Positions 1,009 through 51,823 of a stretch of 64,000 bases of DNA are shown here, in pieces (the stretch's first letter is position 1; every line of letters begins with the position of its first letter). Both the position numbers and the translations under genes were made by a program. This DNA comes from a virus, in the IMG/VR virus record IMGVR_UViG_3300034375_010798; one strand, given 5' to 3'. The notes beneath the pieces were generated by a model. It was not told the origin of the DNA and ran no database searches. It worked only from the letters and a program-made list of their open reading frames with translations.

Positions 1009-2172
1009 ATGAACCAGAATAAACAAATACAAATAACTGAAAAAGATAAAGTATATATATTAATACTAGCTGGAGGTATGGGAGCTAGAATAATACAAAC
1101 ATGCTTTATAAGATCTCTTATAAGAATAAGAAAACAAGAAAGAAATACATATCCTATACTAGTAATAGATAATAGTATAATAGGTCATATGGTTTCTTCT
1201 GCAATGTCTGGGCAGAACGTATATGGAGTTCAAGTTCCAGAATCTCCCAATCAATGGCCACATGATCCGGGTGTTATACCTATAGAAAATGGTTTTGAAC
1301 ATGGTATATATTTAGATAGTTGGCGTGCACAAAATCAATTTTTTAATCGTGATGAAAATATAATACCTAAACTTATAAAAAACAATATAGATAGAGTTTA
1401 TTCTATAGAATATGGCTTTAGTTTAACCAAACTAATCACTCAGCACAGATATAAGGATGATCCTAAATCATTTATATGTAATCTATACTCTAAATCTATG
1501 GCTAGTCCACTGGAATATGATGGTGGCCACCCTATGCTTAAGATTAGTGGAAGTAATAATAAAGTTAATAGTTTTATTAATCAAAATAAAAAACCTATAG
1601 TATTAGTTCATTTAGGAGTTGATAGAAACCCACATGAATTAATGTCTGGTATAAACTACAGAACACATAAAGTATGGTCACTTCAGCAATGGGGTGAGTT
1701 AGCTGCAAAATTAAAAGATAGATATTCTTTTGTTCAAGTTTTTGCAAACGAATATAATCCAGAGATACCCGGTATAACATCATTAAAAGTAGATAATTTA
1801 AATCCAGTATTACAAATATTACAATCTCAAAAGTGTAGAATGTTTTTAAGTATTGATAACTATCTACCACATTTAGCAGCTGCATTATTTCCCTCTATAA
1901 AAAGAAGAGGTGTTGTTTTATGGGGTAGTGTTTCACCTTATGTTTGGGGTTGGAAACATAATATTAATATATGGAATAAAAACTCATGTGATCAAGATGA
2001 TTTAGGTTGTTGGAGACCAAATATGTTTGATCAAGATAGAAATGGAAAACTATGGGTTTGCCCTTCTTACAGCTGTATGAAATCAATAACAGTTCAGCAA
2101 GTTATTAAAGAGATGAATAATTTAGAGGATATAATTAAAAAAGATAAAAAAGAAAATACGGTGATGTTATAA
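1009..2172 (+). CDS. GT9-like (ADP-heptose heptosyltransferase-type) glycosyltransferase
   Basis: Motifs AGGMGA near the N-terminus, K.WS..QW.EL, SIDNYLPHLAAAL..GVVLWG (GT9 DSG.MHLAAA...LFG equivalent), and a C-terminal Cys cluster C..GCW...C....CM..I. Confidence 0.7.
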   Translation: MNQNKQIQITEKDKVYILILAGGMGARIIQTCFIRSLIRIRKQERNTYPILVIDNSIIGHMVSSAMSGQNVYGVQVPESPNQWPHDPGVIPIENGFEHGIYLDSWRAQNQFFNRDENIIPKLIKNNIDRVYSIEYGFSLTKLITQHRYKDDPKSFICNLYSKSMASPLEYDGGHPMLKISGSNNKVNSFINQNKKPIVLVHLGVDRNPHELMSGINYRTHKVWSLQQWGELAAKLKDRYSFVQVFANEYNPEIPGITSLKVDNLNPVLQILQSQKCRMFLSIDNYLPHLAAALFPSIKRRGVVLWGSVSPYVWGWKHNINIWNKNSCDQDDLGCWRPNMFDQDRNGKLWVCPSYSCMKSITVQQVIKEMNNLEDIIKKDKKENTVML

Positions 2173-3998
2173 TGAAAAATTCTTATGTATTAGGTTTAAA
2201 TTGTGGCCATGATGGCAGTGTTTCTCTTGTTAAAAATAGAAAGATGGTTGGTTATATTGCAACTGAAAGATTAACTAGAAACAAGAAGGAACGAGGGATA
2301 AATAAAAAAACAATTAAATACATTTTGGATAAAGAAGGAATTAAATTAAAAGATGTTGATTGTGCAGTTATAACGAATTGGTTTTGGGATAAAGATTTAG
2401 AAGGAACAGAACTTTGGGATAAAACAAAAGAAGATTTTTCTATTGTTGATGCTAATGGAGTTGAATACACACAAGAAGATTGGTTTAACTTTCATCAAAA
2501 CACTAATATGGTTGCACAAGGTGTTTATGAAATGCAAATAGGTGAACAAAACATTCCTGTTTTCTTTGTTGATCATCATTTTTCACATTGTGCAACATCG
2601 TATTACTTGTCTCCTTTTAGAGATGCAATTTGTTTATCTGTTGATTTTGCAGATAATATGGGAACATCACACTCAGTATATTATTTTAATGACGATTTAA
2701 AGTTTTATCGTCCAATCCGTAGAGGGGGTGATTTTGATATAGGTAGCTTTTATGGTTCTATGTGTGATTACTTAGGTTTTTTCCCATCTCTTACTGATGC
2801 TGGCAAAGTAATGGCTTTGTCAGCATACGGTAAAGTAAATGAAAATATAGTTAATGGATTAGAGTGGCCAACTGTAAAAAGAATAGGTCAATTATTTCAT
2901 GGAGATCAATATAATTCATTATTGTATAGACATGGTATGCCGAATATACCAGAACGAAGAGTTTTTTACCCACAACTTAAAGGAGAAGGTGGGGTTGAAG
3001 ATATATCTTGGTTAGATAAAAAAGATTGGAAAATAAAAATAAATAAAAACATTGCGGCAGACACACAACATATATTAGAAGCTTCAATGATTAATATGAT
3101 AAAAGAAATTTTGTCTAATGTAAAAAATACAAAAAATATATGTTTATCTGGTGGAACTGTTTTGAATTGTGTTGCTAATGGGAAATTACAAAAAGCTTTT
3201 CCAGATTATAATTTCTTCATACCACCAGCACCGGGAGATGATGGATTATCAATAGGTGCATCCATTTTTATTGCGGAACAAATTCGCAAAAATAAAAAAG
3301 GTGAGATGAGTATAGAAATGACAAATAAGAAAAAAGTAGGGTATACAATATCTGATACTTTTACTGGCGGTAAGATTTATGACGATCAAGAAATACAATC
3401 AACAATAAAGGAATATTTAAATATAAATAAACCTAAATTAAATTATGAAAAATTATCAAATGATGATATTATTAATAAAATAACAAAAGATATATCTGAA
3501 GGAAAGATTGTAGCTTATTTTGAAGGCGGATCTGAAATAGGCCCAAGAGCCTTAGGTAATAGAAGTATACTAGCAGATGCACGCAACAAAGATATGAAAG
3601 ATAAACTAAATAAGAATGTAAAACACAGAGAAGAGTTTAGACCTTTTGCTCCTATGGTATTAAAAGAGAAAGCTCATGAGTGGTTTGATGTAGAAGAAGG
3701 ATATGAGTCACCATTCATGTTATTTAGTCACAAATCAATTAGGGGTAGTGATATTCCCTCTGGTGTTCATATAGACGATTCTGGACGATTACAGACGATT
3801 TCAGAGGATAATGGAAGAATATATGATATCATAAAAAAGTTTGATGAATTAACTGGTGTTCCTGTAATCATAAATACATCATTTAATGATAAGGGAGAAC
3901 CCATTGTAGAAACTCCAGAAGATGCAATGAAATGCTTTATAAAAACAGAAATTGACACTCTTGTTATGGAAGGTTTTTATGTTACTAAACAATATTGA
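2172..3998 (+). CDS. O-carbamoyltransferase, NodU/CmcH family
   Basis: Motifs HDGS, HHFSH, GKVMALSAYG, LSGG..LNCVANGKL, PAPGDDG.SIG, EIGPRALGNRSILAD, KHREEFRPFAP and NTSFN..GEPIVETPEDA. Confidence 0.95.
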   Translation: MKNSYVLGLNCGHDGSVSLVKNRKMVGYIATERLTRNKKERGINKKTIKYILDKEGIKLKDVDCAVITNWFWDKDLEGTELWDKTKEDFSIVDANGVEYTQEDWFNFHQNTNMVAQGVYEMQIGEQNIPVFFVDHHFSHCATSYYLSPFRDAICLSVDFADNMGTSHSVYYFNDDLKFYRPIRRGGDFDIGSFYGSMCDYLGFFPSLTDAGKVMALSAYGKVNENIVNGLEWPTVKRIGQLFHGDQYNSLLYRHGMPNIPERRVFYPQLKGEGGVEDISWLDKKDWKIKINKNIAADTQHILEASMINMIKEILSNVKNTKNICLSGGTVLNCVANGKLQKAFPDYNFFIPPAPGDDGLSIGASIFIAEQIRKNKKGEMSIEMTNKKKVGYTISDTFTGGKIYDDQEIQSTIKEYLNINKPKLNYEKLSNDDIINKITKDISEGKIVAYFEGGSEIGPRALGNRSILADARNKDMKDKLNKNVKHREEFRPFAPMVLKEKAHEWFDVEEGYESPFMLFSHKSIRGSDIPSGVHIDDSGRLQTISEDNGRIYDIIKKFDELTGVPVIINTSFNDKGEPIVETPEDAMKCFIKTEIDTLVMEGFYVTKQY

Positions 3999-4773
3999 TC
4001 AATATGATACAATAATACTTGGTTTCGGCGCACACACAATAAAGAATAGATGTGTTGAACAGCTAAAACCATTATTTGAAACTGGTAAGATAGATGCTTT
4101 TGTAACTAATGGAGCTTCTATCTTACATGATACAGAGATTGCTTTGTATGACGATACCAGTGAGGATGTTGAAACTACAATCAAAGAGGGTAAGTTTGGT
4201 TGGAATAGAAGAGTATGTGGTGATATAAACAACTTTATCAGCCTTACAAGAACTGATTCATTAGGTAAGTTGATTTCTAACTTCATTGGTTGGCAAGGTA
4301 ATCATAGAGATAAATCAGTATTTTGGCAAGCCCATCAGAATCAAGTGCAACCTATTGTATCTATTGGTATAGGTCATGATATATTTCAAATGTATGGAAA
4401 CTTTGATCCCGCACAGTGGGCAAAAGCTTCTTATAATGATTTTTTAAGACTTTGTAAGTTAGTAGAAAATACAAAAAGAGGTTTGTTTGTTTGTGTTGGA
4501 AGTAAAGTCTTTGTTCCTATGGTTATTGAAAAGGCGTTTTCTGTTGCAAAAAAACGTGATAGTGAATGTGTTTTTGATAGTTTAGTTTGTGATTTGTTTG
4601 ATTTAGAATCAGTTGATGGATCAGAGTATGTTAACAAAGACACATCTAAGGCTGGTTATTATGAACGTCAATTAAAAACTTTTGGTAGAATATCAGAAAA
4701 TATTGAATATCTTAGAATAGATAACAGAAATATATATCAGAGGATGTATGAAGAAATTACACGTAATAGGTGA
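3979..4773 (+). CDS. Deoxyhypusine-synthase-fold (DHS-like NAD-binding) protein of unknown function
   Basis: Motifs GFGAHTIK, VTNGA.ILHD.EIA...TSEDV, IG.DI and VGS.V..P.V.EKA resemble uncharacterised bacterial DHS-like proteins. Start moved to ATG 3979 behind a GGAAGG SD. Confidence 0.6.
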   Translation: MLLNNIDQYDTIILGFGAHTIKNRCVEQLKPLFETGKIDAFVTNGASILHDTEIALYDDTSEDVETTIKEGKFGWNRRVCGDINNFISLTRTDSLGKLISNFIGWQGNHRDKSVFWQAHQNQVQPIVSIGIGHDIFQMYGNFDPAQWAKASYNDFLRLCKLVENTKRGLFVCVGSKVFVPMVIEKAFSVAKKRDSECVFDSLVCDLFDLESVDGSEYVNKDTSKAGYYERQLKTFGRISENIEYLRIDNRNIYQRMYEEITRNR

Positions 4774-5536
4774 GTCATTTATAGATAGATATGTTTTTAT
4801 GCATTCTAATAGAATAGATCCTGCAACAAAAGTTCCAGTTATTTTATCTAATAAAGAAAAAGTTGACACTGATGGCGGTGCCGCTAATTTGATTAAACAT
4901 CTAAATTTTCTCTTTAAAGAAAACAAATACCATGAAATAGCTTTTTATACAAATGAAGATAAAATAATTAAAGAGAGATTTTATATAGACCATAACCCCA
5001 TATATAGGTTTGATCATGGAGATAGTGTAAAACATAACAAAGGAATGGTTCAAAATTTAATAAATGATTTAAATGAAGGTGATTTCCTTGTAATATCAAA
5101 CTATCATAAAGGATTAATAACAGATTATGAAATAAACTTACTAATAAAAGAAGCTAAAAATAAAAACATAACTTCTTTTATAGATACAAATATAGTAAAT
5201 AGTGAATATTATGGCGCTGATTATCTAAAAATAAATAATAAAACATTTTTAGAATATGAAAAAGATTATAGAGATGATATTAGCAAATATTTTCCTAATG
5301 TAATTGTTACATTAGGTATTGAAGGATACAAATATTATGGATATAGCCATATTTTACAAAACGGCGGTGGTCATACAAAATATGATTTTATAGATAGTAT
5401 TGGTGCGGGTGACTCTTTCTTTGCATCATTTATATATAATATTGTATGTGAAAAAAACATATATGATTCATTAAAAGAAGCAGATAATTATGCTGCTGAG
5501 AATTGTAAGAAACTTGGAACATTAAGTTTAAATTAG
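4748..5536 (+). CDS. rfaE1: PfkB-family sugar kinase resembling the HldE/RfaE domain I heptose-7-phosphate kinase
   Basis: VIGESFIDRY, GGAANL, SNYHKG, VTLG.EG and DSIGAGDSF match HldE kinase motifs (VIGD.MLDRY, GGAANV, SDY.KG, D..GAGDT). Confidence 0.8.
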   Translation: MKKLHVIGESFIDRYVFMHSNRIDPATKVPVILSNKEKVDTDGGAANLIKHLNFLFKENKYHEIAFYTNEDKIIKERFYIDHNPIYRFDHGDSVKHNKGMVQNLINDLNEGDFLVISNYHKGLITDYEINLLIKEAKNKNITSFIDTNIVNSEYYGADYLKINNKTFLEYEKDYRDDISKYFPNVIVTLGIEGYKYYGYSHILQNGGGHTKYDFIDSIGAGDSFFASFIYNIVCEKNIYDSLKEADNYAAENCKKLGTLSLN

Positions 5537-5591: not shown

Positions 5592-5888
5592 ATGTCATTA
5601 AGTGTAGATGGAATTATTGAAAAGCGTCGAGGGCAGATGCAAGCAGTAGGTGAGATTCAAGAACAATTGAACGAAGCCCAAACAAGAGCTAATAATCTTC
5701 AACAGTCACTCATTCTAAATCAAGGAGCACTATTACAGTTAAACGCTCTATTAGAAGAATCTGGTGTTAACTTGGAAGAGTTGGATGCACAAGAACAACA
5801 AAGTGGTCAAGAGCCATTAGAAATGCAAGATGTTCAGACTATTGACACTACAGATGGTGATTCTGAAGAGGGTGATGAAAGTTTGTAA
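5592..5888 (+). CDS. Small coiled-coil protein with acidic tail, unknown function
   Basis: GGAG SD, Q/L heptad pattern, E/D-rich C-terminus. Confidence 0.7.
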   Translation: MSLSVDGIIEKRRGQMQAVGEIQEQLNEAQTRANNLQQSLILNQGALLQLNALLEESGVNLEELDAQEQQSGQEPLEMQDVQTIDTTDGDSEEGDESL

Positions 5889-8716: not shown

Positions 8717-8744
8717 TAACTAGTCAAATTTTTACTTATGATTG

Positions 8745-8751
8745 TATTTAT
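8745..8751 (+). promoter_or_regulatory. Putative late-promoter element TATTTAT
   Basis: It lies 36 nt before the tube ATG. The same motif sits 33-35 nt upstream of the starts at 10510 and 48001. Confidence 0.4.
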
Positions 8752-8780
8752 ATTAAATGCAATACAAACGGAGATAAATA

Positions 8781-9275
8781 ATGGCAACACCATTTGAAGT
8801 AAATGTAATGTTGGCAGATACATTTGAACCCAAAAGGCAGAATAGATTTATCTTTCAGTTCGCTGATGATACAATCCCTGCTTTTGTGGCTCGCACAACA
8901 TCTAGACCTACTTACACTGCCGCTCCAATCACTATTGATTATTTAAATCAGAAGAGATATTTGGCTGGTAAGGGTGAGTGGGGAACAATTTCTATGTCAC
9001 TATATGATCCAATCGCTCCATCTTCAGCTCAGAAGGTTATGGAGTGGGTTAGACTTCAACATGAGACCATCTCTGGTCGTGACGGATATGCAGCCTTCTA
9101 TAAGAAGAACATTTCACTAAAGGCTCTAGATCCAGTAGGAGCTACAGTTGAAGAGTGGGATCTACGTGGGTGTTGGTGCACAGAGGTTAACTTTGGCGCA
9201 TATGATATGGCCAATGGCGAACCAATGAATGTCGATATCACAATTAGACCTGATGATTGTATATTAAGATTTTAA
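8781..9275 (+). CDS. Tail tube protein (T4 gp19-like)
   Basis: Directly follows the sheath. Motifs FEPKRQNRF, LYDPIAPS.AQ.VMEW.R, GRDGYA.FYKK and VEEW.L.G. Confidence 0.93.
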   Translation: MATPFEVNVMLADTFEPKRQNRFIFQFADDTIPAFVARTTSRPTYTAAPITIDYLNQKRYLAGKGEWGTISMSLYDPIAPSSAQKVMEWVRLQHETISGRDGYAAFYKKNISLKALDPVGATVEEWDLRGCWCTEVNFGAYDMANGEPMNVDITIRPDDCILRF

Positions 9276-9299
9276 TTCTTACTTACAATTAATTCTTAT

Positions 9300-9337
9300 A
9301 AAAACATCCCTTGAAAAATTCAAGGGATGTTTTTTTT
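9300..9337 (+). terminator. Rho-independent terminator after the tail tube gene
   Basis: Perfect inverted repeat AAAACATCCCTTGAA-aaa-TTCAAGGGATGTTTT followed by a T run. Confidence 0.9.
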
Positions 9338-9406
9338 GTATAAAAGATAATTAAATTTTATTAAAATTAACTAAATAATTATTTTTATATGAAAGGAATT
9401 AATATT

Positions 9407-33519: not shown

Positions 33520-34089
33520 TTGGCATTTCTTGATTCATCAACAGCAGTTATAGACGCAATTCTTACTAAGAGGGGCCGAGAATTGTTAGCTAGAAATGAT
33601 GGCTCCTTTCAAATAACAAAGTTTGCCTTTGGTGATGATGAGATTAATTACCAATTATTCAACATTGCAAACACAGTTAATCCAGAGGCAGATATTATTA
33701 ATCTACCTGTTTTGGAACCCACATCAAATGATGAGGTAGCATTGTTAAATAGATTAGTAACTCTACCAAGAGGAACACTAAAAGTAGCTACATTGAGTTT
33801 AGATCCTAATCAAGCAACAGTTGATTTTGGAAGTGATATAACTGTTTCAGTTGTTACTGAAAATGGTAGTGATCCACAGGGATATACAGCAACTATTAGA
33901 GATTCTACTATTGGTGTTTTGACAGCTGCAAGAGCAATTCCAGCTGCTGGTGGTTTAGCTACTTTCACTATTAGAACTGGCGAAAATGCTAGCGGTGGAA
34001 CAGGAACTACAATTATGGATATTATTGGTATCAACACTGGAGCTAGAAAAGAGTTTAGCTTAACAGTTAATGAAGCAACAACAACTTAA
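33520..34089 (+). CDS. Conserved virion structural protein (TTG start)
   Basis: Starts AFLD....IDAILTKRGRELLA....FQITKFAFGDDEINY, typical of large-myovirus baseplate/fibre-attachment proteins. GGGGGA SD. Confidence 0.75.
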   Translation: MAFLDSSTAVIDAILTKRGRELLARNDGSFQITKFAFGDDEINYQLFNIANTVNPEADIINLPVLEPTSNDEVALLNRLVTLPRGTLKVATLSLDPNQATVDFGSDITVSVVTENGSDPQGYTATIRDSTIGVLTAARAIPAAGGLATFTIRTGENASGGTGTTIMDIIGINTGARKEFSLTVNEATTT

Positions 34090-34102
34090 TTAGAGAAAAG
34101 GT

Positions 34103-34969: not shown

Positions 34970-34975
34970 AACATT

Positions 34976-37333: not shown

Positions 37334-37342
37334 AGAGTGTAA

Positions 37343-38254: not shown

Positions 38255-38265
38255 AGGAAAATAAA

Positions 38266-39990: not shown

Positions 39991-39992
39991 AT

Positions 39993-41339: not shown

Positions 41340-41370
41340 TTAGCTAGTAATTAATATAACAGGAAATAAA

Positions 41371-44611: not shown

Positions 44612-44670
44612 ATAAATTTTAAAAGTATTAAAAAAGTTATTATATTAATTATAAAAGAATGGAGGTTTTT

Positions 44671-45090
44671 ATGTTAAATACATTATTGTTGGCTACTTTT
44701 TGCCAATCAAAAAATATAGATGAGATTATATCAGACATAAAAAATAATTTTGATATTATGGGTGATAAGATATTCATCTTGCAAGATAAATCAAGTAAAC
44801 ATAAGAAAATATTAACTTACAATATAAAGAAGAGTGGTAACACTATATTTTCTGATGTTATAAGTAATACTATATCTTTACATAGAAAGAAAGAAACTAA
44901 TACTCTTTATACATTGAATGCACTTAATGAAATTGTTAAGGAGCAAAACAATGGTGAGGTTAGTAAGGATTTTACTGTTAATTGGGAAGATTATAGAAAT
45001 ACTTTATTAATAACTTATTATGATGATTTATCTAGTAAAACAGTATTAAAATCAATTAACACAAGTTTAATTAAAATAATTAATATATGA
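44671..45090 (+). CDS. Conserved large-phage hypothetical protein
   Basis: Motifs LLATF, TYN, LHRKKETNTLYT.NALN and W..Y.N.LL. Start at ATG 44671 after GGAGG. Confidence 0.75.
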   Translation: MLNTLLLATFCQSKNIDEIISDIKNNFDIMGDKIFILQDKSSKHKKILTYNIKKSGNTIFSDVISNTISLHRKKETNTLYTLNALNEIVKEQNNGEVSKDFTVNWEDYRNTLLITYYDDLSSKTVLKSINTSLIKIINI

Positions 45091-45097
45091 GGTTATA

Positions 45098-47518
45098 ATG
45101 TCAGAAAACAAAATGGTTAGTGTTTTATTGTTTGTAGAAAATTCTGATGACGATCAAATAGTAGAGGCAGTAAAAAATATATCTGAACAAACATATAAGA
45201 ATGTTGATTTGATTGTTTCATCATTTAAGGAAGAAAATTCAGAAGAAGTTAAAAAAATAGTCAATAGTTTGTTTTTAAATGTGCAATGGATTAATCATAA
45301 ACCTATTCCAACATTTATAAATGAAGCTTTGGAATTAGCTGTAGGTGATATTATTTTTTATAGAACTATTAATAATGTTAAGTGGTATCCAAGACATATT
45401 GATAGTCATATTGAAAAATACGATGATTCAAATGTTAATTGGTGTCTTTCAAATTTAGAAAGCAAAGACATTAATAAGCCAGAGGGTAAAGCTAATACTT
45501 TTGACTATAGGATAGAAAACCCACCTAACTTAACAACAATTATAATTGATGAAGTTTCTCACCGCAAAGGCATACCAGCAGATTGGGCATTATGTATCAC
45601 TGAAGATTCAAATGGCGAACATGATTTTTCTGCGGGTAAAATAGTTAATCAGTGGTCTTATGAAAAATTAAGAGGAACTGTATCCACAGAAATAAGTGTT
45701 ATTCAGTGGATTGAAAGAGATGGTGGTTATAAGGAAACTATAAATTATATTGAGGCACAGATTGGCGCACCTGCCCCTATAGATAACAAACATTCTATCA
45801 ATGAAGAGACTGGTGAGATAGAGATAAAAAGAAAACTTCCAACTTTAGTTGGTAACTATAGATTTGCAAATCATAATAAGCACACTGTTGCTATGTCAAA
45901 GAATATGGGTGATATAAACTCAATAGCTATTAAGAGAACAATAGGGTTGGGTGATGTTATATTAATTGAGCCAATCATTAAGAAGTTGAGACAGGATCAT
46001 CCTAAAGCTGAAATAACACTTTTTACCAAATCAACAGATATACCAAATTACTTCAAGCACGCACCAGATCATATAAAGACGTTAGATGAAGTCAATCTTC
46101 ACGAAGACTTTTTATCTAAAACAGAATATGAAATGGGTATTGATTTGGATTTATCATATGAGAGCAGAGTTAAGAGACCTTTTATTGACTCTTATGCTGA
46201 AGTTGCAAATGTATTCTTTGAAGATAGAAGAGATAAGTATCCACAATTAGTGTGTGATGAAGATCGTATTATAGAAGAAAAATATATTGTTGTTTGTGGT
46301 GATGGATCTGGTTGGCCCGGAAAAACTTGGCCATTAAGTTATTATGAGAACATTATTCTTCATTATAAAAATGAAGGATATAATGTTATAGAAACTGGAA
46401 GCCATCATGTCACAAATGATACAGATCCAACATATCACAATTGTGATTTTAAAACTTTAATTAATTTGATTAAAAATTGTGATTTGTATATCGGAGCAGA
46501 CAATGGTCCCATGCATATTGCAAGATCTTTCAATAAGAAGTGTGTGATTATTGCAGGAGCTGCTTTGCCAAGATTAACTAATCCCAATAATGAAAATGTT
46601 TATTATCTTGAAAATCATGGTAATGATTGTTTAGGATTAAAGCACTCTAAGTTTATAGATTTAACAGAAAAAGGTGGTTTAACATTTATACCTATTAATG
46701 TTAAAGATCCAAGTTGTGGTATTAATGATATTAAACCAAGTATGGTTAAAAAAGCAGTATCATCTTTAACAGATAAAAAGACATCACCAGATGGAAATGA
46801 GATGACTTATGCTTTTAATATCATAGGAAATCTCATCAGCAAAGATTTGATTGAGGGTTTTGCATATTATAGAGATGATGTTACTGGTATATATTGGAAA
46901 GAAGATGTGCATCATCACCCAGATCAAAGACTTAATACATCTCAGTTTTATATAGATAAAAAAGAAACAGTGTGGGAAAAGAACTTTGTTCCAATAATTA
47001 ATCATATGACAGAGAAATCAATAACTAATAATTCTTTATTAGATATTGGGTGTAATATGGGAATATTTTTAGATGGATATTCTAAGTATACGGATGATAT
47101 TATGGGTATTGATTTAAACATAGACTCTATTACAAATGGTATTAATATATATTCTGATTTAAAAGATAAATTAATATCTGGTAATTTTGTTACTTATGAT
47201 TTTGATAGAAAGTTTCAAACATTATTGTGTCATGATATTATTAATAATGTTAGCAACCCAAGAGAATTTTTATCTAAGTGTTACGATGTTTCTGAATCTG
47301 GTGGTTATCTATATATAAGTTTTTATGATATAGATAATGACTCATTTAGAGATAACCCAAGAGATTGGAGAGATATGGGTGTTGGTGAAAAAATATCATT
47401 TTTTGATTATAAAACATTTGAATCTATGTTAGATGATAATGGGTTTAAAATAGTTGAGCAATATTTTACGCATGAAGCTACTGATGCTAAGTTTTTGTTT
47501 TGTCAAAGGAAAAATTAA
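45098..47518 (+). CDS. Multidomain glycosyltransferase: degenerate GT2 + GT9-like + SAM methyltransferase
   Basis: GT2-like N-terminus (EQTYKNVDLIV, A.GD.I); GT9 motifs R..GLGDVIL..P, K.WP and YIGADNGPMHIA; C-terminal LLDIGCNMG.F methyltransferase motif. Confidence 0.85.
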   Translation: MSENKMVSVLLFVENSDDDQIVEAVKNISEQTYKNVDLIVSSFKEENSEEVKKIVNSLFLNVQWINHKPIPTFINEALELAVGDIIFYRTINNVKWYPRHIDSHIEKYDDSNVNWCLSNLESKDINKPEGKANTFDYRIENPPNLTTIIIDEVSHRKGIPADWALCITEDSNGEHDFSAGKIVNQWSYEKLRGTVSTEISVIQWIERDGGYKETINYIEAQIGAPAPIDNKHSINEETGEIEIKRKLPTLVGNYRFANHNKHTVAMSKNMGDINSIAIKRTIGLGDVILIEPIIKKLRQDHPKAEITLFTKSTDIPNYFKHAPDHIKTLDEVNLHEDFLSKTEYEMGIDLDLSYESRVKRPFIDSYAEVANVFFEDRRDKYPQLVCDEDRIIEEKYIVVCGDGSGWPGKTWPLSYYENIILHYKNEGYNVIETGSHHVTNDTDPTYHNCDFKTLINLIKNCDLYIGADNGPMHIARSFNKKCVIIAGAALPRLTNPNNENVYYLENHGNDCLGLKHSKFIDLTEKGGLTFIPINVKDPSCGINDIKPSMVKKAVSSLTDKKTSPDGNEMTYAFNIIGNLISKDLIEGFAYYRDDVTGIYWKEDVHHHPDQRLNTSQFYIDKKETVWEKNFVPIINHMTEKSITNNSLLDIGCNMGIFLDGYSKYTDDIMGIDLNIDSITNGINIYSDLKDKLISGNFVTYDFDRKFQTLLCHDIINNVSNPREFLSKCYDVSESGGYLYISFYDIDNDSFRDNPRDWRDMGVGEKISFFDYKTFESMLDDNGFKIVEQYFTHEATDAKFLFCQRKN

Positions 47519-47956
47519 ATGGAGACTTTTGGTAGTATAATAGATAAAATAACAATTTTAGAAAGAAGAATTCAAGAGTTAAGAAAAAAAGATGAAGGAT
47601 ATTACCACCTATACAATCAGTATGGGTGGTTATTCAAAAGTATTGGTGATCAACTTACTGAGTGTTTTAGTGGTCGTAGGCCATTTACATTTGAAAAACA
47701 TAAGGTTTATGATAAAGAAGTATCAATACAAAATGAAGTAAGTTTTTTATCAGTTATTAGTCTTCTAAATGAGTATAATAATAAGTTATGGGATTTAGAG
47801 GATATTAGAAGAGATAAGAGTTTAACTGATAATGAAAGATTAGAGGCCGCTGATAAGGTTTCTGAGTATAATAAGTTAAGAAATGATTGTATTGATAGAA
47901 TAGATCAATATATTGAAAAAGCAGCCAGAAGTTCACACGAATCTATCTTTAAATAA
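47519..47956 (+). CDS. DUF4254/DUF6165-like helical protein, often next to heptosyltransferases
   Basis: Motifs ETFGSIIDKITIL and N.KLWDLED.RR....N..RND.I..ID. Confidence 0.55.
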   Translation: METFGSIIDKITILERRIQELRKKDEGYYHLYNQYGWLFKSIGDQLTECFSGRRPFTFEKHKVYDKEVSIQNEVSFLSVISLLNEYNNKLWDLEDIRRDKSLTDNERLEAADKVSEYNKLRNDCIDRIDQYIEKAARSSHESIFK

Positions 47957-48186: not shown

Positions 48187-48753
48187 ATGAAAAGAATAAA
48201 AAACTTATTATCAAAGGTTATATTCTTTTCAAGTGTTGCGATTTTAGTCAGTTGTTCAGACAACCCTACATCTAGTGATAGTAGGGAGTATGTATATAGC
48301 TATGATAATTACGCATTAATGATGGTTGATGCATTAGATGAAAAATATGCATATTTAGAAAGAAGTTTTAATGTTACAGATGGTGAAATACAATATATGG
48401 AAATTTATCATTTTGAAAAAAGTGACGACCCATTCTACCATCTTCAGTTTAAAATGGATAGAATGATTAAAACAAACTCATTAGATATTTGGTTCAAAAG
48501 TGAGCCAAAGAGTTCTAGTAGAAATGTTTATTCTATAGAGGGTAATATACTTTTTCAAAGTGGCTCTTATATATTGATGATTAAAAAATCTGGCATATCT
48601 TATAATATGAGAACCGATCAATATGATACATTTATTCCAGAACCTGTAGGAATAAATAAGATGGTTATTATAGATGATGGTGTTTTTATAGGTGATGATA
48701 AATATGGTGGTTTGCGTTATCAAATTGGAGATTTAGAAGATATAAAAATATAA
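48187..48753 (+). CDS. Putative lipoprotein
   Basis: Basic N-terminus, hydrophobic stretch, lipobox LVS-C, then SDNPTSS. Confidence 0.65.
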   Translation: MKRIKNLLSKVIFFSSVAILVSCSDNPTSSDSREYVYSYDNYALMMVDALDEKYAYLERSFNVTDGEIQYMEIYHFEKSDDPFYHLQFKMDRMIKTNSLDIWFKSEPKSSSRNVYSIEGNILFQSGSYILMIKKSGISYNMRTDQYDTFIPEPVGINKMVIIDDGVFIGDDKYGGLRYQIGDLEDIKI

Positions 48754-48754: not shown

Positions 48755-49201
48755 ATGCTCATATATAAACCTAAATATTTTATTGAAGAAGTTATTTTTA
48801 CTAATGGTTGTTTTGATTTATTTCATAAAGGGCATGAATTTTTAATAAACTATGCATTATCTTTTAAATTACCAAGTAATAAATTAGTTGTTGGTGTTAA
48901 CACAGATAAATCAGTTAAGAAGTTAAAAGGAAATAATAGACCTGTTGATACTTTTAATAAAAGAGTAGAAAATTTAGTTTATTTTTCTAAAGAAATTGAT
49001 TATATTATACCGATTGAGAATACTAGTGTTTTAGAAACTATTAAATGGTTAAGACCTAGTATTCTCATAAAAGGTGGTTCAACAGATTTTATAGTAGGTA
49101 AATCATTTGTTGAATCATACGGAGGTAAAGTTATTAAGGCTCCTATGTTTGGAGAATATTCTACAACTAATTTATTGAAAAAGATGGTTAAAGATGAGTA
49201 A
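48755..49201 (+). CDS. rfaE2: HldE/RfaE domain II heptose-1-phosphate nucleotidyltransferase
   Basis: Motifs FTNGCFDLFHKGH, LVVGVNTD.SV.KLKG..RP, P.IL.KGG, V.SYGG.V and YSTT. Confidence 0.9.
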   Translation: MLIYKPKYFIEEVIFTNGCFDLFHKGHEFLINYALSFKLPSNKLVVGVNTDKSVKKLKGNNRPVDTFNKRVENLVYFSKEIDYIIPIENTSVLETIKWLRPSILIKGGSTDFIVGKSFVESYGGKVIKAPMFGEYSTTNLLKKMVKDE

Positions 49202-50774
49202 AAAGTTTCATATATTGCAATTAGCTGGTTTTGGAGACACACTTTCAGCATTAACAAGAATTCCCGCAGTAAAAGAAAAATACCCAGAACATGAAATACA
49301 ATTTTGGTTAGGTGGCATCGGCCAATCAGTTGAGTTTTCAAAACAACAAATAGAAAGAGAAGGTTATAAAGCTTCTGTTGTTAAGAACTTTTCATTTCAT
49401 AATCAAATCAGATCTACATATGATTTTATAAAAGAAAATGTTTTTGAAGAAAACGACATATTAGAAGATTGGAGTTTTTGTTCTGAGATTTTTAGTAATA
49501 AAGAACCTGTTTTTTATAAATATGATTTGCAATTTCCTTATCATTATAAAACAACAAAACATCCATATAATACAGAAATAAATTTTACACCAAAAAATAC
49601 AGTAGCTATTCACCCCCTAACAAAATCTGGCAACATAGAGGGGTTTGAAAGTGATGTTGAGAAAGGTAGGTTTTGGAGTAGAGATGAGTGGAAGAATTTG
49701 TGTATAAAGTTGTGTGATAATGGATATACACCTGCCTTCGTTGGTTATGGAGATGAGGATTGGGGGTTAATAGAAGAGCTAATAACAGACGGATACAGCG
49801 TCTTAGATAAGAGAATGGGTGTAGAAGATACAATATATTTTCTACAAACAGTTGATGCAGGTATATTCTGTAATAGTTGGGATTGGGAAATAACATCAAG
49901 AGCTGGTATACCAACATTTTGTTTTTATACGAAGAATCATTTCTTTATTCAGAATCATATACCAAAAGGGCTATCAGATTTTTGGAACACTTGTTATATT
50001 GAAACAAATTCTGATTATGAAGAAGTAGAATACTATGATCAAAAAGTATATAAAGAAGCTGTAAATGCATCTGGTGTTTTTGATAAAATAAAATATATAA
50101 TAGAAAATAAAAAATCTCCTAATTATAATTTTTCTGTGTGTATGATAGGTATGAATAATGAAAATCACATTCAGAAAACTTTTAATAATATAGGATCATA
50201 TATATCTTCAAATGAAAATAATGAGTTTGTTTTCGTTGATGGTGGATCTACAGATAAAACAATTGATATAACAAAAACATTTATTCAATCATTGAATATA
50301 AAAGAAGGAAACGCACATATAATAGAAAACCCATGGCCAAATAATCACAGTGTTCAGAAAAATATAGCCTTAGAAAAAACAAATAATGATTGGGTTGTTT
50401 GGATTGATACTGATGAAACTTATGAAGATATATTCTGGAATCAGTTAGGTTGGTATATAAGAGATGCTGATAAAAATAATTTTGACTCTATTATATTTCC
50501 AAGAATTAATGTTATAACTGGTGTTGATGAAGATAAGCTAGAAGATTTTGCAAAAAGACAAAATTGGGTTTTATCAAAACCATTTAATTGGATTAATTAT
50601 CCAGATGTTCAACAAAGAGTTTATAAGAACAATTGTAGATATAGTAACAAGATACATATAAAAATAAATAACGCTAATAAAGAAAAAGTAGTTGATGGTG
50701 TTCATTGTTTGCATTATAAAACATATGACACACAAGTTAATCAACTTATTGAATATGGTGAGTATAAACATTAA
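49194..50774 (+). CDS. GT9-like + GT2 fusion glycosyltransferase
   Basis: GT9-like N-terminus (AGFGDTL, VAIHP, R.W..W, NS); GT2 C-terminus (VDGGSTDKT, QKN.AL, WV.WIDTDE, YPD.Q.R). Confidence 0.8.
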   Translation: MSKKFHILQLAGFGDTLSALTRIPAVKEKYPEHEIQFWLGGIGQSVEFSKQQIEREGYKASVVKNFSFHNQIRSTYDFIKENVFEENDILEDWSFCSEIFSNKEPVFYKYDLQFPYHYKTTKHPYNTEINFTPKNTVAIHPLTKSGNIEGFESDVEKGRFWSRDEWKNLCIKLCDNGYTPAFVGYGDEDWGLIEELITDGYSVLDKRMGVEDTIYFLQTVDAGIFCNSWDWEITSRAGIPTFCFYTKNHFFIQNHIPKGLSDFWNTCYIETNSDYEEVEYYDQKVYKEAVNASGVFDKIKYIIENKKSPNYNFSVCMIGMNNENHIQKTFNNIGSYISSNENNEFVFVDGGSTDKTIDITKTFIQSLNIKEGNAHIIENPWPNNHSVQKNIALEKTNNDWVVWIDTDETYEDIFWNQLGWYIRDADKNNFDSIIFPRINVITGVDEDKLEDFAKRQNWVLSKPFNWINYPDVQQRVYKNNCRYSNKIHIKINNANKEKVVDGVHCLHYKTYDTQVNQLIEYGEYKH

Positions 50775-51823
50775 TGTTTACAACAAAAATAAGAAATAAT
50801 AATGTAGTTATACACCATATCAATGAGTTGTCTGTTGGTGGAACAACAAAAATAATACAAACTTTATTACCTTATTTTTTAAAAGATAAAAAATATAAAC
50901 ATTATGTTTCTTATAAAAAATGGATAGATATATCTAGAGAAAGTGATTTTATAAGTGTTATAGGTGAAGAAAGGATGCTTCCCTATAACACTGAACATGA
51001 TTTTTTAGAAATAGTTAAACATTTAAAACCTCACATCATACAAAGATATTCCGCAGGAATACCAGAGTTTCCTTTTGTAGAACAAGTAAAAGAACATACA
51101 AATCATTTTGTATCATTATCTACGTTTGGTGATCAAGACGAAACAATAGATATATCAGCGGTTATATATGTTTCTTTGCATGTTCAATTTTTTATGGGTA
51201 AACAAAAAGAAAAAAATCACTACACTGTAAGAGTTCCTGTTATTGATAAACCTCAAAATAAAAACTTAAGAAAAGAATTAGGTATAGAAGATGATATATA
51301 TGTTTTTGGTAGAATAGGAAGGTCTGATGATAATATATATGATCCTATTAATATAAAAGCCTATTCTATGATAGAAACAGATAAAACTTGCTTTATTTCT
51401 GTTAATTCTTCTCAAAAAATGCTGCAGGATATTAAGCAATTTAATATAAAGAATTTTGTTGACATTCCACAAAATATTGATTATATTTATATATCTAAGT
51501 TTTATAACACTATTGATGTTCTTGCTCATGCGAGGAAAGACGGCGAGTGTTGTCCTACAAACATAGCCGAATCGTTTTCACACAGTAAACCTGTAATAAG
51601 TCATTACGGTGATCGTTTTAATGGTCAAATAGAAAATATACAAAACGCAGGTTTTACTGTGTTACATAATGATATTAAAGAGTATGCTCGTATAATGAAA
51701 AATTTTGTAGATAAAAAATATGATTATGAAAAGTTATCAAAAAATGCAAGACAAAGATATGAAGAAGATTATAATCCAGAAATGATATATAGAAAGTATA
51801 TTGAGATATATAATTCATTATGA
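50774..51823 (+). CDS. GT4-family (GT-B) glycosyltransferase
   Basis: Motifs L.VGGT, FGRIGR and D.LAHAR.DGE.....IAE.....KPVI. Confidence 0.85.
   Translation: MFTTKIRNNNVVIHHINELSVGGTTKIIQTLLPYFLKDKKYKHYVSYKKWIDISRESDFISVIGEERMLPYNTEHDFLEIVKHLKPHIIQRYSAGIPEFPFVEQVKEHTNHFVSLSTFGDQDETIDISAVIYVSLHVQFFMGKQKEKNHYTVRVPVIDKPQNKNLRKELGIEDDIYVFGRIGRSDDNIYDPINIKAYSMIETDKTCFISVNSSQKMLQDIKQFNIKNFVDIPQNIDYIYISKFYNTIDVLAHARKDGECCPTNIAESFSHSKPVISHYGDRFNGQIENIQNAGFTVLHNDIKEYARIMKNFVDKKYDYEKLSKNARQRYEEDYNPEMIYRKYIEIYNSL

What the first reader, a model, noticed from the sequence alone, without database searches (positions are those of the whole stretch)
1009..51823. Split phage-encoded heptose glycosylation/carbamoylation pathway bracketing the tail module
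Seen: the two halves of the normally fused HldE enzyme are separate genes ~43 kb apart, with the kinase at 4748 and the nucleotidyltransferase at 48755, one on each side of the tail/baseplate genes. With them are three GT9-like domains (1009, 45098, 49194), GT2 and GT4 domains, a GT-fused methyltransferase, a DUF4254/6165-like gene and a NodU-type carbamoyltransferase. Established: HldE supplies ADP-heptose, GT9 enzymes transfer heptose, and NodU/CmcH enzymes O-carbamoylate sugars. Inference: the phage makes its own NDP-heptose and builds a methylated/carbamoylated heptose glycan, most plausibly on the virion or alternatively on the host surface. GmhA, GmhB and HldD are not in this window and would have to come from elsewhere in the genome or from the host.
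Basis: partly seen in the sequence, partly recalled or inferred. Interest (0 to 1): 0.9.

Follow-up and report, generated by a model that had tools for sequence, protein, structure and literature searches.

The report
Phage heptose-sugar genes flanking tail module
An uncultured aquatic T4-like phage carries two operons, one on each side of its tail genes, that most likely make an activated seven-carbon sugar (heptose) and build a carbamoylated, methylated glycan from it; the core gene set is already listed in ocean phages as unexplained "LPS genes", its target is unproven, and one member is a new enzyme family tied to heptose synthesis.

Summary

The heptose reading is well supported:
- The kinase and nucleotidyltransferase best match the two HldE domains and the split Burkholderia enzymes HldA and HldC.
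- Related phages add a GmhA-like isomerase, an SDR epimerase and a transaldolase to the second cluster.

It is not new as a kind:
- Cyanophages P-SSM2, S-CAM1 and others carry the same core cassette beside fibre genes. It was published in 2005-2010 as "LPS genes" of unknown function.
- Pelagimyophage papers note rfaE and glycosyltransferases in the host-recognition cluster.
- This scan has found the cassette type in at least 14 other genomes.
- Separate HldA and HldC are normal in some bacteria, so "normally fused" overstates the case.

Particular to this lineage:
- The kinase and nucleotidyltransferase lie 44 kb apart, a layout conserved in relatives.
- The second cluster is large (GT9-methyltransferase, DUF4254, GT9-GT2, GT4).
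- A deoxyhypusine-synthase-fold gene (GSU2086 family) sits in the first cassette. In bacteria this family is fused or adjacent to every ADP-heptose enzyme except HldD.
- The GT9-like partner of the carbamoyltransferase lacks the canonical catalytic Asp.

The target is undetermined: virion proteins about 0.45, host envelope about 0.3, DNA about 0.08.

The parts
994..1001 (+). TATATTAA promoter-like motif 15 bp upstream of cassette A
   Evidence: The motif occurs 41 times in the window against 18.5 expected, and 0 of 100 shuffles reach that count. The same motif lies 15-50 bp upstream of the sheath (6043), the tube (8749), ORF 5592 (5545) and ORF 44659 (44641).
1009..2172 (+). GT9-fold protein of an Asp-less 'GGxGxR' subfamily with four invariant C-terminal cysteines; always directly upstream of the carbamoyltransferase
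   Evidence: - 21 of 27 homologs hit Pfam GT9.
- AF2 model pLDDT 87. VIA Z: 19.4 (3tov), 18.9 (TibC), 18.1 (WaaF), 16.9 (WaaC); the next fold is at 11.7.
- K221, D283 and H288 align to the WaaC donor motifs.
- The canonical G-D Asp is replaced by Ala-Arg in 27 of 27 members.
- C327, C334, C351 and C356 are invariant.
2172..3998 (+). O-carbamoyltransferase of the NodU/CmcH/TobZ family
   Evidence: Pfam Carbam_trans_N and Carbam_trans_C are both above their cut-offs. PDB 7xb6 E=1e-63; TobZ, NovN and GdmN also match. The start overlaps the stop of ORF 1009 (TAATG).
3979..4773 (+). Deoxyhypusine-synthase-fold protein, GSU2086 family (NF052581); proposed extra or alternative step of heptose-nucleotide synthesis
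   Evidence: - NCBIfam 154 bits, below the 250 cut-off.
- AF2 model pLDDT 92. Foldseek's top hits are all deoxyhypusine synthases.
- Bacterial members are fused to HldE, GmhA-like, GmhB-like or HldC-like domains.
- They are adjacent to such genes in 29, 15, 19 and 13 of 80 loci respectively.
- The gene overlaps both neighbours.
4748..5536 (+). HldA-like PfkB sugar-phosphate kinase
   Evidence: - Best NCBIfam model is rfaE_dom_I, 80 bits.
- The only PDB hit is HldA 4e84, and it is weak.
- 27-31% identical to the cyanophage 'carbohydrate kinase' T4-GC 305; belongs to phrog_8133.
- GAGD motif at residues 219-222.
5592..5888 (+). Small ORF (98 aa) of unknown function between the kinase and the sheath
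   Evidence: Conserved in L005 and L008 at 54% identity. No family hit.
6077..10249 (+). Tail sheath, tail tube and a T4-type baseplate protein: start of the tail module that separates the two clusters
   Evidence: Pfam Phage_sheath_1 and Phage_sheath_1C, a weak T4_gp19 hit, and T4_baseplate at 62 bits.
44659..45090 (+). First gene of cluster B, 143 aa, unknown function
   Evidence: 55% identical and syntenic in L130. The TATATTAA motif at 44641 lies 18 bp upstream.
45098..47518 (+). Multidomain enzyme: GT2-like N-terminus (my reading only), GT9 domain, SAM methyltransferase
   Evidence: Pfam GT9 48 bits and Methyltransf_23 51 bits. PDB 3tov and WaaF match. G-D motif 'IGLGDVILIEP' near residue 285. 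39% identical over 803 aa in L130.
47519..47956 (+). DUF4254 protein
   Evidence: Pfam PF14063 E=2e-11. Conserved next to the GT9 genes in L129 and L130.
48187..48753 (+). 188-aa ORF of unknown function; membership of the system is uncertain
   Evidence: No Pfam, NCBIfam or PHROG hit. No counterpart in L129 or L130.
48755..49201 (+). HldC-like heptose-1-phosphate adenylyltransferase candidate
   Evidence: rfaE_dom_II 115 bits, covering 11-143 of 144 positions. PDB 5x9q E=1e-18. GCFDLFHKGH motif. 51% identical in L130.
49194..50774 (+). GT9-like N-terminal domain fused to a GT2 domain
   Evidence: - GT2 Pfam 57 bits at residues 314-453.
- The closest solved GT2s by sequence are the protein or peptide glycosyltransferases GmaR and SunS.
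- N-terminal GT9 motif with G-D.
- Nearest Atlas clusters are viral GT9 clusters, score 0.97.
50774..51823 (+). GT4 (GT-B) glycosyltransferase
   Evidence: Pfam Glycos_transf_1 35.5 bits. 48-50% identical in L129 and L130.
51820..52527 (+). Conserved 235-aa protein of unknown function, co-inherited with cluster B
   Evidence: Syntenic in L129 and L130 at 40-46% identity. No family or PDB match.

Best explanation
Two translationally coupled operons, probably late-expressed, form one glycan-building system.

Supply (inferred from family matches):
- The PfkB kinase (4748) phosphorylates a heptose-7-phosphate at C1.
- The cytidylyltransferase-fold enzyme (48755) makes ADP-heptose.
- The isomerase and phosphatase steps, which are not in this contig, come from the unsampled part of the genome or from the host.
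- The DHS-fold protein (3979) adds or replaces a step, possibly a bound-NAD epimerisation or redox step in place of HldD.

Assembly (inferred):
- Two catalytically canonical GT9 domains (in 45098 and 49194) transfer heptose.
- The fused GT2 and the GT4 add other sugars.
- The fused methyltransferase and the carbamoyltransferase O-methylate and O-carbamoylate the glycan.
- The Asp-less GT9-like protein (1009) works as the obligate partner of the carbamoyltransferase, either as a transferase with a non-canonical base or as the unit that binds the heptose substrate.

Target (least certain): the phage's own fibre or baseplate proteins, modified in the cytoplasm while virions assemble.
For: Shown:
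- Domain identities and intact catalytic motifs.
- GT9 fold of ORF 1009.
- Stop/start coupling inside both clusters.
- Cassette A is conserved between the fibres and the sheath in L005, L008, L007 and L135. Cluster B is conserved between the last structural genes and gp32 in L129 and L130.
- In relatives the kinase stays with cassette A and the nucleotidyltransferase with cluster B.

Heptose-specific support:
- L130 and L129 add an SDR epimerase and a GmhA-like SIS gene after the GT4. L130 also adds a transaldolase, which makes sedoheptulose-7-P.
- Cyanophage cassettes carry GT9-like, carbamoyltransferase, nucleotidyltransferase, kinase, 'phosphoheptose isomerase' and epimerase genes beside fibre genes.
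- The DHS-fold family is fused to a full-length HldE (420 bits) and to GmhA-, GmhB- and HldC-type domains.
- Pseudomonas core HepII is 7-O-carbamoylated by WapO (PMC8005017).

For a virion target (all indirect):
- Both clusters sit inside the structural gene block.
- They share the enriched TATATTAA upstream motif with the sheath and tube, whereas replication-side genes have TTGACA-17-TATATT promoters.
- No Wzx, Wzy, WaaL or priming transferase was seen among the ORFs of the two clusters that I scanned.
- The GT2's nearest solved relatives glycosylate proteins or peptides.
- TibC, a protein O-heptosyltransferase, ties for the best structural match, and ORF 1009 has four invariant Cys at about the position of TibC's iron finger.
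- Virion glycosylation by phage GTs beside structural genes is established in mycobacteriophages (Freeman 2023, as cited in PMC12801897; I did not read it).
Against: - The kinase (80 of 345 bits) and the nucleotidyltransferase (115 of 181.5 bits) are below the curated equivalog cut-offs, so heptose specificity is inferred.
- gmhA, gmhB and hldD are not in the 109 kb held.
- ORF 1009 lacks the canonical catalytic Asp.
- LPS heptosyltransferases match the GT9 models as well as TibC does. ORF 1009 lacks TibC's N-terminal beta-barrel, and the TibC/Aah NCBIfam model gives only weak hits.
- The promoter motif is an inference in AT-rich DNA.
- LPS inner-core modification also takes place on the cytoplasmic face and needs no flippase, so the missing Wzx/Wzy does not exclude it.
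- The published interpretations favour host surface modification.
Confidence: 0.45

Rival explanations
1. Host-envelope remodelling. The same enzymes make ADP-heptose and add a decorated heptose-containing oligosaccharide to the host's LPS core or another surface glycolipid. This would change receptors, block superinfection, or stop progeny from re-adsorbing to infected cells and debris.
For: - All biochemically characterised GT9 enzymes other than the TibC/Aah type act on LPS.
- WaaF and WaaC are equally good structural matches.
- The one established carbamoyl-heptose is in an LPS core.
- This is the published reading for cyanophage and pelagimyophage 'LPS genes' (PMC3037559, PMC7029224, PMC12801897).
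- The GT2 also hits a GtrB-like O-antigen-conversion PHROG weakly.
Against: - The clusters are embedded in, and apparently co-transcribed with, the structural genes of a lytic T4-like phage, which is late for receptor masking.
- The GT9-like plus carbamoyltransferase pair is tied to fibre genes across very different phages whose hosts differ.
- No membrane-translocation genes were found in the two clusters.
Confidence: 0.3
2. DNA hypermodification. The nucleotide sugar is used by one or more of the GT-B enzymes to glycosylate a hydroxymethyl-pyrimidine in phage DNA. Carbamoyl and methyl groups would be further tailoring, protecting the genome from host nucleases.
For: - A metagenomic phage cluster (a HAD/kinase fusion, a cytidylyltransferase and a GT-B enzyme) was shown to put mono- and di-heptose on 5hmC. 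Such clusters occur near structural genes (bioRxiv 10.1101/2023.12.21.572611).
- T4-like phages are the classic DNA glucosylators.
- The GT4 weakly resembles BshA-type enzymes, as the DNA GT-B enzymes in that study do.
Against: - No thymidylate-synthase-family hydroxymethylase and no TET/JBP oxygenase is in the 109-kb contig. This is weak evidence: about 60% of the genome is unsampled, and the TET control search matched nothing anywhere.
- The DNA heptosyltransferase in that study was like T4 beta-GT, not GT9.
- Five transferase domains plus two tailoring enzymes is more than known DNA pathways use.
- Cyanophages with the core cassette are not known to carry hmC (my own knowledge).
Confidence: 0.08
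3. Not heptose. The kinase and nucleotidyltransferase activate a different sugar phosphate, or the products are a soluble metabolite. The GT9-like domains would then use another donor.
For: - Both supply enzymes score well below the curated HldE cut-offs.
- The kinase is about 50 residues shorter than HldA.
- The DHS-fold partner has no known chemistry.
- In bacteria, DHS-fold genes go with a second HldE-type nucleotidyltransferase copy (odds ratio 7), which suggests a pathway distinct from core-heptose synthesis.
Against: - The best family for both enzymes is heptose-specific.
- Three GT9 domains are present.
- Relatives carry GmhA-like and transaldolase genes beside them.
- The DHS-fold fusion partners best match GmhA, GmhB and HldE models specifically.
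Confidence: 0.12

Closest known systems
Cyanomyovirus 'LPS gene' cassette T4-GC 302-308 (P-SSM2 gp307-313, S-CAM1 gp109-115; also S-SM2, S-SSM7, P-TIM68, S-T4)
   Same: - An Asp-less GT9-like protein lies directly upstream of a NodU-type carbamoyltransferase.
- It has an HldC-like nucleotidyltransferase and an HldA-like kinase, each 27-35% identical to the window's.
- It is embedded among tail-fibre genes.
- Its function is unknown (PMC3037559).
   Different: - Here the nucleotidyltransferase is 44 kb from the kinase, in a second cluster.
- No short 'isomerase', cupin or SDR epimerase is in the contig.
- A DHS-fold gene sits where the cyanophages have the nucleotidyltransferase; this family is absent from 50,697 phage records.
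- The GT9-like protein has a four-Cys cluster that the cyanophage versions lack.
- There is a further GT9-MT / DUF4254 / GT9-GT2 / GT4 cluster.
Pelagimyophage host-recognition-cluster glycosyltransferases and rfaE (Zaragoza-Solas et al. 2020, PMC7029224)
   Same: Aquatic low-GC T4-like phages with many LPS-type genes, including rfaE, in and around the fibre region.
   Different: - That paper reports GT8 as the dominant family and proposes host O-chain modification.
- It gives no gene-level description of this cassette.
- This phage's sheath is only distantly related to any cultured phage: 33% to Microcystis phage Mel-JY01 and 42% over the C-terminus to Flavobacterium phage immuto.
[quoted passage not shown]
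   Same: The kinase and adenylyltransferase are separate proteins of the same two folds, with the same catalytic motifs.
   Different: - The phage enzymes are shorter and score below the equivalog cut-offs.
- GmhA, GmhB and HldD are not found in the contig.
- A DHS-fold protein is present instead.
TibC/AAH autotransporter heptosyltransferases (BAHT family; PMC4358343)
   Same: GT9-type GT-B catalytic core (Z 18.9, rmsd 3.3 over 271-274 residues). Four conserved Cys lie in a C-lobe insertion at a similar position to TibC's Cys339/342/358/370. Both would act in the cytoplasm on a protein acceptor.
   Different: - ORF 1009 has no N-terminal beta-barrel.
- It has no catalytic Asp at the D110-equivalent motif.
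- The TibC/Aah NCBIfam model gives only weak hits.
- Oligomeric state and metal binding are unknown.
Pseudomonas LPS inner core: WaaC/WaaF with the carbamoyltransferase WapO (PA5005) (PMC8005017)
   Same: GT9 heptosyltransferases together with a NodU/CmcH-family carbamoyltransferase, giving 7-O-carbamoyl-heptose.
   Different: That system acts on lipid A-Kdo in a cell. Here the genes lie in a virus's structural block, and the acceptor is unknown.
Phage 5hmC sugar-hypermodification clusters (bioRxiv 10.1101/2023.12.21.572611)
   Same: A phage-encoded kinase, cytidylyltransferase and GT-B enzyme using heptose; sometimes located near structural genes.
   Different: Those clusters sit beside a C5-methyltransferase with a TET-type oxygenase, or beside a ThyS-type enzyme, and use GTs like T4 beta-GT. 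None of these was found here.

Membership tests
ADP-heptose synthesis enzymes HldA/HldC (HldE domains I and II) | Score above the curated NCBIfam cut-off for rfaE_dom_I (kinase) and rfaE_dom_II (adenylyltransferase) | tested here: not met
   Kinase 80 bits against 345; nucleotidyltransferase 115 bits against 181.5. Both are nevertheless the best-scoring models.
ADP-heptose synthesis enzymes HldA/HldC (HldE domains I and II) | Catalytic motifs: PfkB GxGD anion hole; nucleotidyltransferase GxFDxxHxGH | tested here: met
   GAGD at kinase residues 219-222; GCFDLFHKGH at nucleotidyltransferase residues 18-27.
ADP-heptose synthesis enzymes HldA/HldC (HldE domains I and II) | Remaining pathway genes (gmhA, gmhB, hldD) in the same genome | tested here: inconclusive
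   None in the 109-kb contig, but the contig is about 40% complete. Relatives L129 and L130 carry a GmhA-like SIS gene and an SDR epimerase, and L130 a transaldolase, in cluster B.
ADP-heptose synthesis enzymes HldA/HldC (HldE domains I and II) | Substrate is D-glycero-D-manno-heptose phosphate | not testable with these tools
   Needs an enzyme assay or complementation.
CAZy GT9 (heptosyltransferases) | Pfam PF01075 above the gathering score | tested here: met
   - ORF 45098: 48 bits against 22.
- ORF 1009: no hit itself, but 21 of 27 family members hit.
- ORF 49194 N-terminus: no Pfam hit; supported by its motif and Atlas neighbours only.
CAZy GT9 (heptosyltransferases) | GT-B fold closest to solved GT9 structures | tested here: met
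   ORF 1009 model: the ten best Foldseek hits are all GT9. VIA Z is 16.4-19.4 for GT9 against 11.7 or less for other GT-B families.
CAZy GT9 (heptosyltransferases) | Catalytic Asp in the N-terminal G-D motif (TibC D110 per PMC4358343; WaaC D13 from memory) | tested here: not met
   - Not met for ORF 1009: Gly-Ala-Arg replaces G-D in 27 of 27 family members, and the cyanophage counterparts have GGAGR.
- Met for ORF 45098 (IGLGDV) and ORF 49194 (GFGDT).
BAHT (TibC/AAH protein O-heptosyltransferases) | N-terminal beta-barrel domain | tested here: not met
   The structural alignment starts at TibC residue 96 and model residue 13. ORF 1009 has no extra N-terminal domain (PMC4358343).
BAHT (TibC/AAH protein O-heptosyltransferases) | Four-Cys iron finger inserted in the C-lobe | tested here: inconclusive
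   C327, C334, C351 and C356 are invariant in the family and lie in the region aligned to TibC 339-370 by range only. No residue-level alignment could be obtained.
BAHT (TibC/AAH protein O-heptosyltransferases) | NCBIfam TIGR04414 above its cut-off (200 bits) | tested here: not met
   ORF 45098 scores 21.7 bits. Only 2 of 27 ORF 1009 family members hit weakly.
NodU/CmcH/TobZ O-carbamoyltransferases | Both Carbam_trans_N and Carbam_trans_C domains above the gathering score, full length | tested here: met
   155 and 212 bits. Full-length match to PDB 7xb6, E=1e-63. It is not a NodU orthologue: 188 bits against 1000.
Cyanomyovirus 'LPS gene' cassette T4-GC 302-308 | GT9-like gene immediately upstream of the carbamoyltransferase, beside fibre genes | tested here: met
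Cyanomyovirus 'LPS gene' cassette T4-GC 302-308 | Nucleotidyltransferase, kinase, short isomerase, cupin and SDR epimerase contiguous with it | tested here: not met
   Only the kinase is contiguous. The nucleotidyltransferase is 44 kb away. Isomerase, cupin and epimerase are not found in the contig.
GSU2086 family (NCBIfam NF052581) | Score above the 250-bit cut-off | tested here: not met
   154 bits, matching residues 17-237 to profile positions 61-266. The phage copy lacks about 55 N-terminal residues. It shares the family's invariant motifs and the DHS fold, so it is a truncated or divergent relative.
Phage DNA sugar-hypermodification clusters | Neighbouring 5mC oxygenase with C5-methyltransferase, or a ThyS-type hydroxymethylase | tested here: inconclusive
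   No PF00303 or PF12851 match in the contig. The genome is incomplete, and the PF12851 control matched nothing anywhere.

The most novel reading that the evidence does not exclude
Two linked claims:
- Marine T4-like phages O-heptosylate their own fibre or baseplate proteins and then carbamoylate and methylate the sugar. They would use a phage-only GT9-like plus carbamoyltransferase pair.
- The deoxyhypusine-synthase-fold GSU2086 family is a previously unrecognised enzyme of heptose-nucleotide biosynthesis. It could be an HldD substitute, or the signature of a second, modified-heptose pathway, and it is widespread in bacteria.
Probability: 0.3. Interest if true: 0.8.

Novelty: new variant of a known kind. 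Interest (0 to 1): 0.55.

Why it matters
- **Virion chemistry.** If the glycan goes on virion proteins, this would be a sugar decoration of receptor-binding structures in abundant ocean phages. That would bear on host range, on escape from host or grazer recognition, and on how fibre proteins are read from sequence alone. Virion glycosylation is so far established mainly for mycobacteriophages.
- **A 15-year-old annotation.** Whatever the target, the work narrows what the unexplained "LPS genes" are: a heptose-nucleotide supply plus a conserved GT9-like and carbamoyltransferase pair.
- **A wider lead.** A DHS-fold family with no assigned function occurs in about a third of sampled genomes of one phylum. 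It is fused or adjacent to every ADP-heptose enzyme except the epimerase, which gives a directly testable candidate for a missing or alternative step in a pathway relevant to LPS biology and innate immunity.

Tried and rejected
- Megablast of the first 12 kb against 50,697 phage records: no match.
- Pattern scans of viral contigs with the GT9-MT fusion and with the nucleotidyltransferase found no relatives. Cluster B relatives came only through the GT9-GT2 protein.
- The two large metagenome records behind L135 and L149 (133 and 158 kb) are not held for whole-record search. No near-complete relative could therefore be checked for gmhA, gmhB and hldD.
A hand-written degenerate DNA pattern worked instead.
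- The T4 late-promoter consensus TATAAATA is not enriched: 10 observed against 18.6 expected. The sigma-70 and terminator scans are uninformative in this AT-rich DNA.
- hhalign of the ORF 1009 family against single sequences (P-SSM2 gp307, S-CAM1 gp109, ORF 45098, ORF 49194) gave only weak matches, probability 0.4-21%. Kinship with the cyanophage proteins rests on position, the marginal GT9 hit and the shared Asp-less motif.
- TibC could not be aligned at sequence level to the ORF 1009 family.
- Phage SDR, cupin and short-isomerase probes found nothing in the contig or beside bacterial DHS-fold genes.
- ORFs 44659, 48187, 51820 and 5592 stay unassigned after Pfam, NCBIfam and PHROGs; ORF 51820 also after a PDB profile search.
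- Ten large ORFs at 29437-44611 match no PHROG family, so 'baseplate/fibre' there is by position only.
- No paper in the library holds 'GSU2086', or both 'deoxyhypusine synthase' and 'heptose'.

Full report
**What the DNA is.** The window is the minus strand of a 109-kb IMG/VR virus contig that CheckV estimates at about 40% complete.
- All genes run on the + strand of the window, and GC is about 30%.
- It is a T4-like myovirus: it has a sheath, tube, T4 baseplate protein, gp25-like and gp6-like wedges and gp32.
- It is only distantly related to cultured phages. The sheath is 33% identical to Microcystis phage Mel-JY01 and 42% over its C-terminus to Flavobacterium phage immuto. Megablast finds nothing.
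- The host is unknown.
- That the very large ORFs upstream of the window are tail fibres comes from earlier follow-up notes of this scan. I did not re-test it.

Cassette A holds four overlapping genes:
- ORF 1009.
- A full-length O-carbamoyltransferase (2172).
- A deoxyhypusine-synthase (DHS)-fold protein. Its real start is probably the ATG at 3979.
- A PfkB kinase (4748) whose best curated model is the HldE kinase domain.

Cluster B holds:
- ORF 44659.
- A GT9-methyltransferase fusion (45098).
- DUF4254 (47519).
- ORF 48187.
- A cytidylyltransferase-fold protein (48755) whose best model is the HldE adenylyltransferase domain.
- A GT9-like/GT2 fusion (49194).
- A GT4 (50774).
- ORF 51820.

Catalytic motifs are intact, and neighbouring genes overlap or abut.

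Two of the GT9 claims had no direct Pfam support and needed further work:
- **ORF 1009.** 21 of 27 homologs hit GT9. Its AF2 model (pLDDT 87) matches GT9 structures at Z 16-19 and nothing else above 11.7.
- **ORF 49194 N-terminus.** It starts with the textbook GT9 motif including G-D. Its nearest ESM-Atlas clusters are viral GT9 clusters.

**Is it heptose?** Direct scores are sub-threshold: kinase 80 of 345 bits, nucleotidyltransferase 115 of 181.5 bits. Context makes the case:
- The best solved relatives are the split Burkholderia enzymes HldA (4e84) and HldC (5x9q).
- Relative L130 (39-57% identity, same gene order) continues cluster B with an SDR epimerase, a GmhA-like SIS protein and a transaldolase, the enzyme that makes sedoheptulose-7-phosphate. 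L129 has the SDR and SIS genes too.
- Cyanophage cassettes carry the homologous kinase and nucleotidyltransferase next to an annotated phosphoheptose isomerase and an epimerase.
- Three GT9 domains are present, two of them with the canonical catalytic Asp.

None of gmhA, gmhB, hldD, SIS, SDR or transaldolase is in the 109 kb held. The pathway as seen here is incomplete. It must be completed by the unsampled 60% of the genome or by the host.

**How new is it?** Not new as a kind.
- P-SSM2, S-CAM1, S-SM2, S-SSM7, P-TIM68, S-T4 and others carry the string GT9-like, carbamoyltransferase, nucleotidyltransferase, kinase, isomerase, cupin, epimerase among tail-fibre genes.
- Sullivan et al. 2010 noted that T4-GCs 304, 305, 307 and 308 co-occur and called them LPS genes of unknown function (PMC3037559).
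- Zaragoza-Solas et al. 2020 described glycosyltransferases and rfaE in the pelagimyophage host-recognition cluster and proposed host O-chain modification (PMC7029224).
- This scan has noted the same cassette type in at least 14 other genomes, with follow-ups reaching similar verdicts.
- 'Normally fused HldE' is too strong. The enzymes are separate in Burkholderia and in all these phages.

**What is particular to this lineage.**
1. *The split.* The kinase stays with cassette A, between the fibres and the sheath, in L005, L008, L007 and L135. The nucleotidyltransferase stays with cluster B, between the last structural genes and gp32, in L130. Neither contig type has the other enzyme. The 44-kb separation is therefore conserved down to about 40-58% protein identity.
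2. *Cluster B* is a conserved block of multidomain transferases.
3. *The carbamoyltransferase's partner.* In ORF 1009 and all 26 relatives the catalytic Asp of the GT9 G-D motif is replaced by Ala/Ser-Arg. The donor-side Lys and Asp/His motifs are kept. The cyanophage proteins in the same position have a similar Asp-less GGAGR motif. This defines a phage GT9-like subfamily that always precedes a NodU-type carbamoyltransferase. The lineage here adds four invariant cysteines at roughly the position of TibC's iron finger.
4. *The DHS-fold gene.*

**The DHS-fold gene (3979-4773).**
- It is a divergent, N-terminally shortened member of NCBIfam 'GSU2086 family'.
- Its model is confident (pLDDT 92), and its best structural matches are deoxyhypusine synthases at 12-16% identity.
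- An exhaustive search found 729 cluster representatives. None occurs in the 50,697 phage records.
- Several members are fusions:
  - to a full-length HldE (420 bits, with its adenylyltransferase half at the curated cut-off);
  - to the HldE adenylyltransferase domain alone;
  - to a GmhA-type isomerase;
  - to GmhB-type HAD phosphatases;
  - to an HldA-like kinase plus a HAD domain.
- In 80 bacterial loci recovered with a degenerate motif pattern, all carry the gene. Of these, 29 have a PfkB kinase, 15 an HldE-type nucleotidyltransferase, about 19 a HAD phosphatase and 13 a SIS isomerase, adjacent or fused, even though the flanks are truncated.
- The one canonical step never seen fused is the HldD epimerase.
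- In 151 sampled genomes of one phylum (the phylum of the genome holding L070):
  - 48 carry the family above its cut-off, 30 carry HldD, and only 2 carry both (odds ratio 0.12, Fisher p = 7e-4).
  - Carriers are enriched for a second HldE-type nucleotidyltransferase copy (39 of 48 against 39 of 103; odds ratio 7).
  - Source.
- These tallies include three genomes flagged unpublished (G057, G158, G032). Leaving them out does not change the result.
- The statistics are not corrected for phylogeny, and about half the genomes have neither gene.
- I therefore take only this: the family belongs to a heptose-type nucleotide-sugar pathway. It either stands in for HldD or marks a second, paralogous pathway.
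- No paper in the library links the two.

**Where does the glycan go?** This cannot be settled computationally.

For virion proteins:
- Both clusters lie inside the structural block.
- Both are preceded by an enriched TATATTAA motif that also precedes the sheath and tube genes. Replication-side genes have sigma-70-like promoters instead.
- The GT9-like and carbamoyltransferase pair tracks fibre genes across phages of very different hosts.
- The two clusters contain no flippase, polymerase, ligase or priming transferase.
- The GT2's nearest solved relatives by sequence are protein or peptide glycosyltransferases.
- TibC ties for best structural match.

For the host envelope:
- GT9 biochemistry is overwhelmingly LPS.
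- The only known carbamoyl-heptose is in the Pseudomonas LPS core.
- Core modification also needs no flippase.

For DNA:
- Phage-encoded heptosylation of 5hmC has been demonstrated.
- However, no hydroxymethylase or TET-type gene is in the contig, and the GT types differ.

My estimates: heptose-based glycan synthesis about 0.75; target virion about 0.45, host envelope about 0.3, DNA about 0.08, non-heptose or other about 0.12.

**Verdict.**
- It is a lineage-specific variant of a published but functionally unexplained phage gene set, not a new kind of system.
- Its main added value is three testable leads: the DHS-fold enzyme, the Asp-less GT9-like partner of the carbamoyltransferase, and the conserved split of the supply genes between two structural-module operons.

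Noticed in passing
window 3979-4773; bacterial loci L009-L088; proteins P0045-P0130: The GSU2086/DHS-fold family is fused or adjacent to GmhA-, HldA-, GmhB- and HldC-type enzymes across many bacterial phyla. In 151 genomes of one phylum it is anti-associated with HldD (2 co-occurrences against 9.5 expected). It is associated with a second HldE-type nucleotidyltransferase copy. No literature was found on it.
   Followed up: yes
window 994, 5545, 6043, 8749, 10286, 44641 (+ strand): TATATTAA is enriched (41 against 18.5 expected). Seven of its 20 plus-strand copies lie in the roughly 3% of the window that is intergenic, 15-50 bp upstream of structural and enzyme genes. It is a candidate late-promoter element for this lineage. 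The T4 consensus TATAAATA is not enriched.
   Followed up: partly
window 55863-55891, about 56390-56420, 63272-63333: Genes on the replication side (55935, 56433, 63334) are preceded by near-consensus TTGACA-17-TATATT promoters, unlike the structural block.
   Followed up: no
window 27706-27972: An 88-aa ORF with HNH-endonuclease PHROG hits (E=1e-8) sits between the gp6-like wedge gene and the next baseplate gene. It may be a small homing-type nuclease inside the baseplate module.
   Followed up: no
window 29437-44611: Ten consecutive ORFs (189-1112 aa) in the structural block match no PHROG family at E<=1e-5. Three of them (38266, 39993, 41371) have homologs in L130.
   Followed up: partly
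L007 12939-14631; L135 12933-14571; L144 14291-15984: More distant relatives carry a second carbamoyltransferase. It is split into separate N-domain and C-domain ORFs, between the first carbamoyltransferase and the kinase. The DHS-fold gene is absent there.
   Followed up: partly
L130 12004-14297: An SDR epimerase, a GmhA-like SIS protein and a transaldolase form a run directly after the GT4. This links a classic phage 'auxiliary metabolic gene' (talC-type transaldolase) to heptose-precursor supply, not to general pentose-phosphate metabolism.
   Followed up: partly
window 45098-45460 (residues 1-120 of ORF 45098): The N-terminus reads like a GT2 (GT-A) start (VSVLLFVENSD...QTYKNVDLIV) and is conserved in L130, so the protein may be a GT2-like/GT9/methyltransferase triple fusion. 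Pfam gives no hit there.
   Followed up: no
window 9300-9334 and 10202-10227: Strong hairpin-plus-T-run terminator-like sites lie after the tube gene (16-bp stem) and at the end of the baseplate-protein gene. An earlier first-reader note proposes a frameshift at the second site.
   Followed up: no
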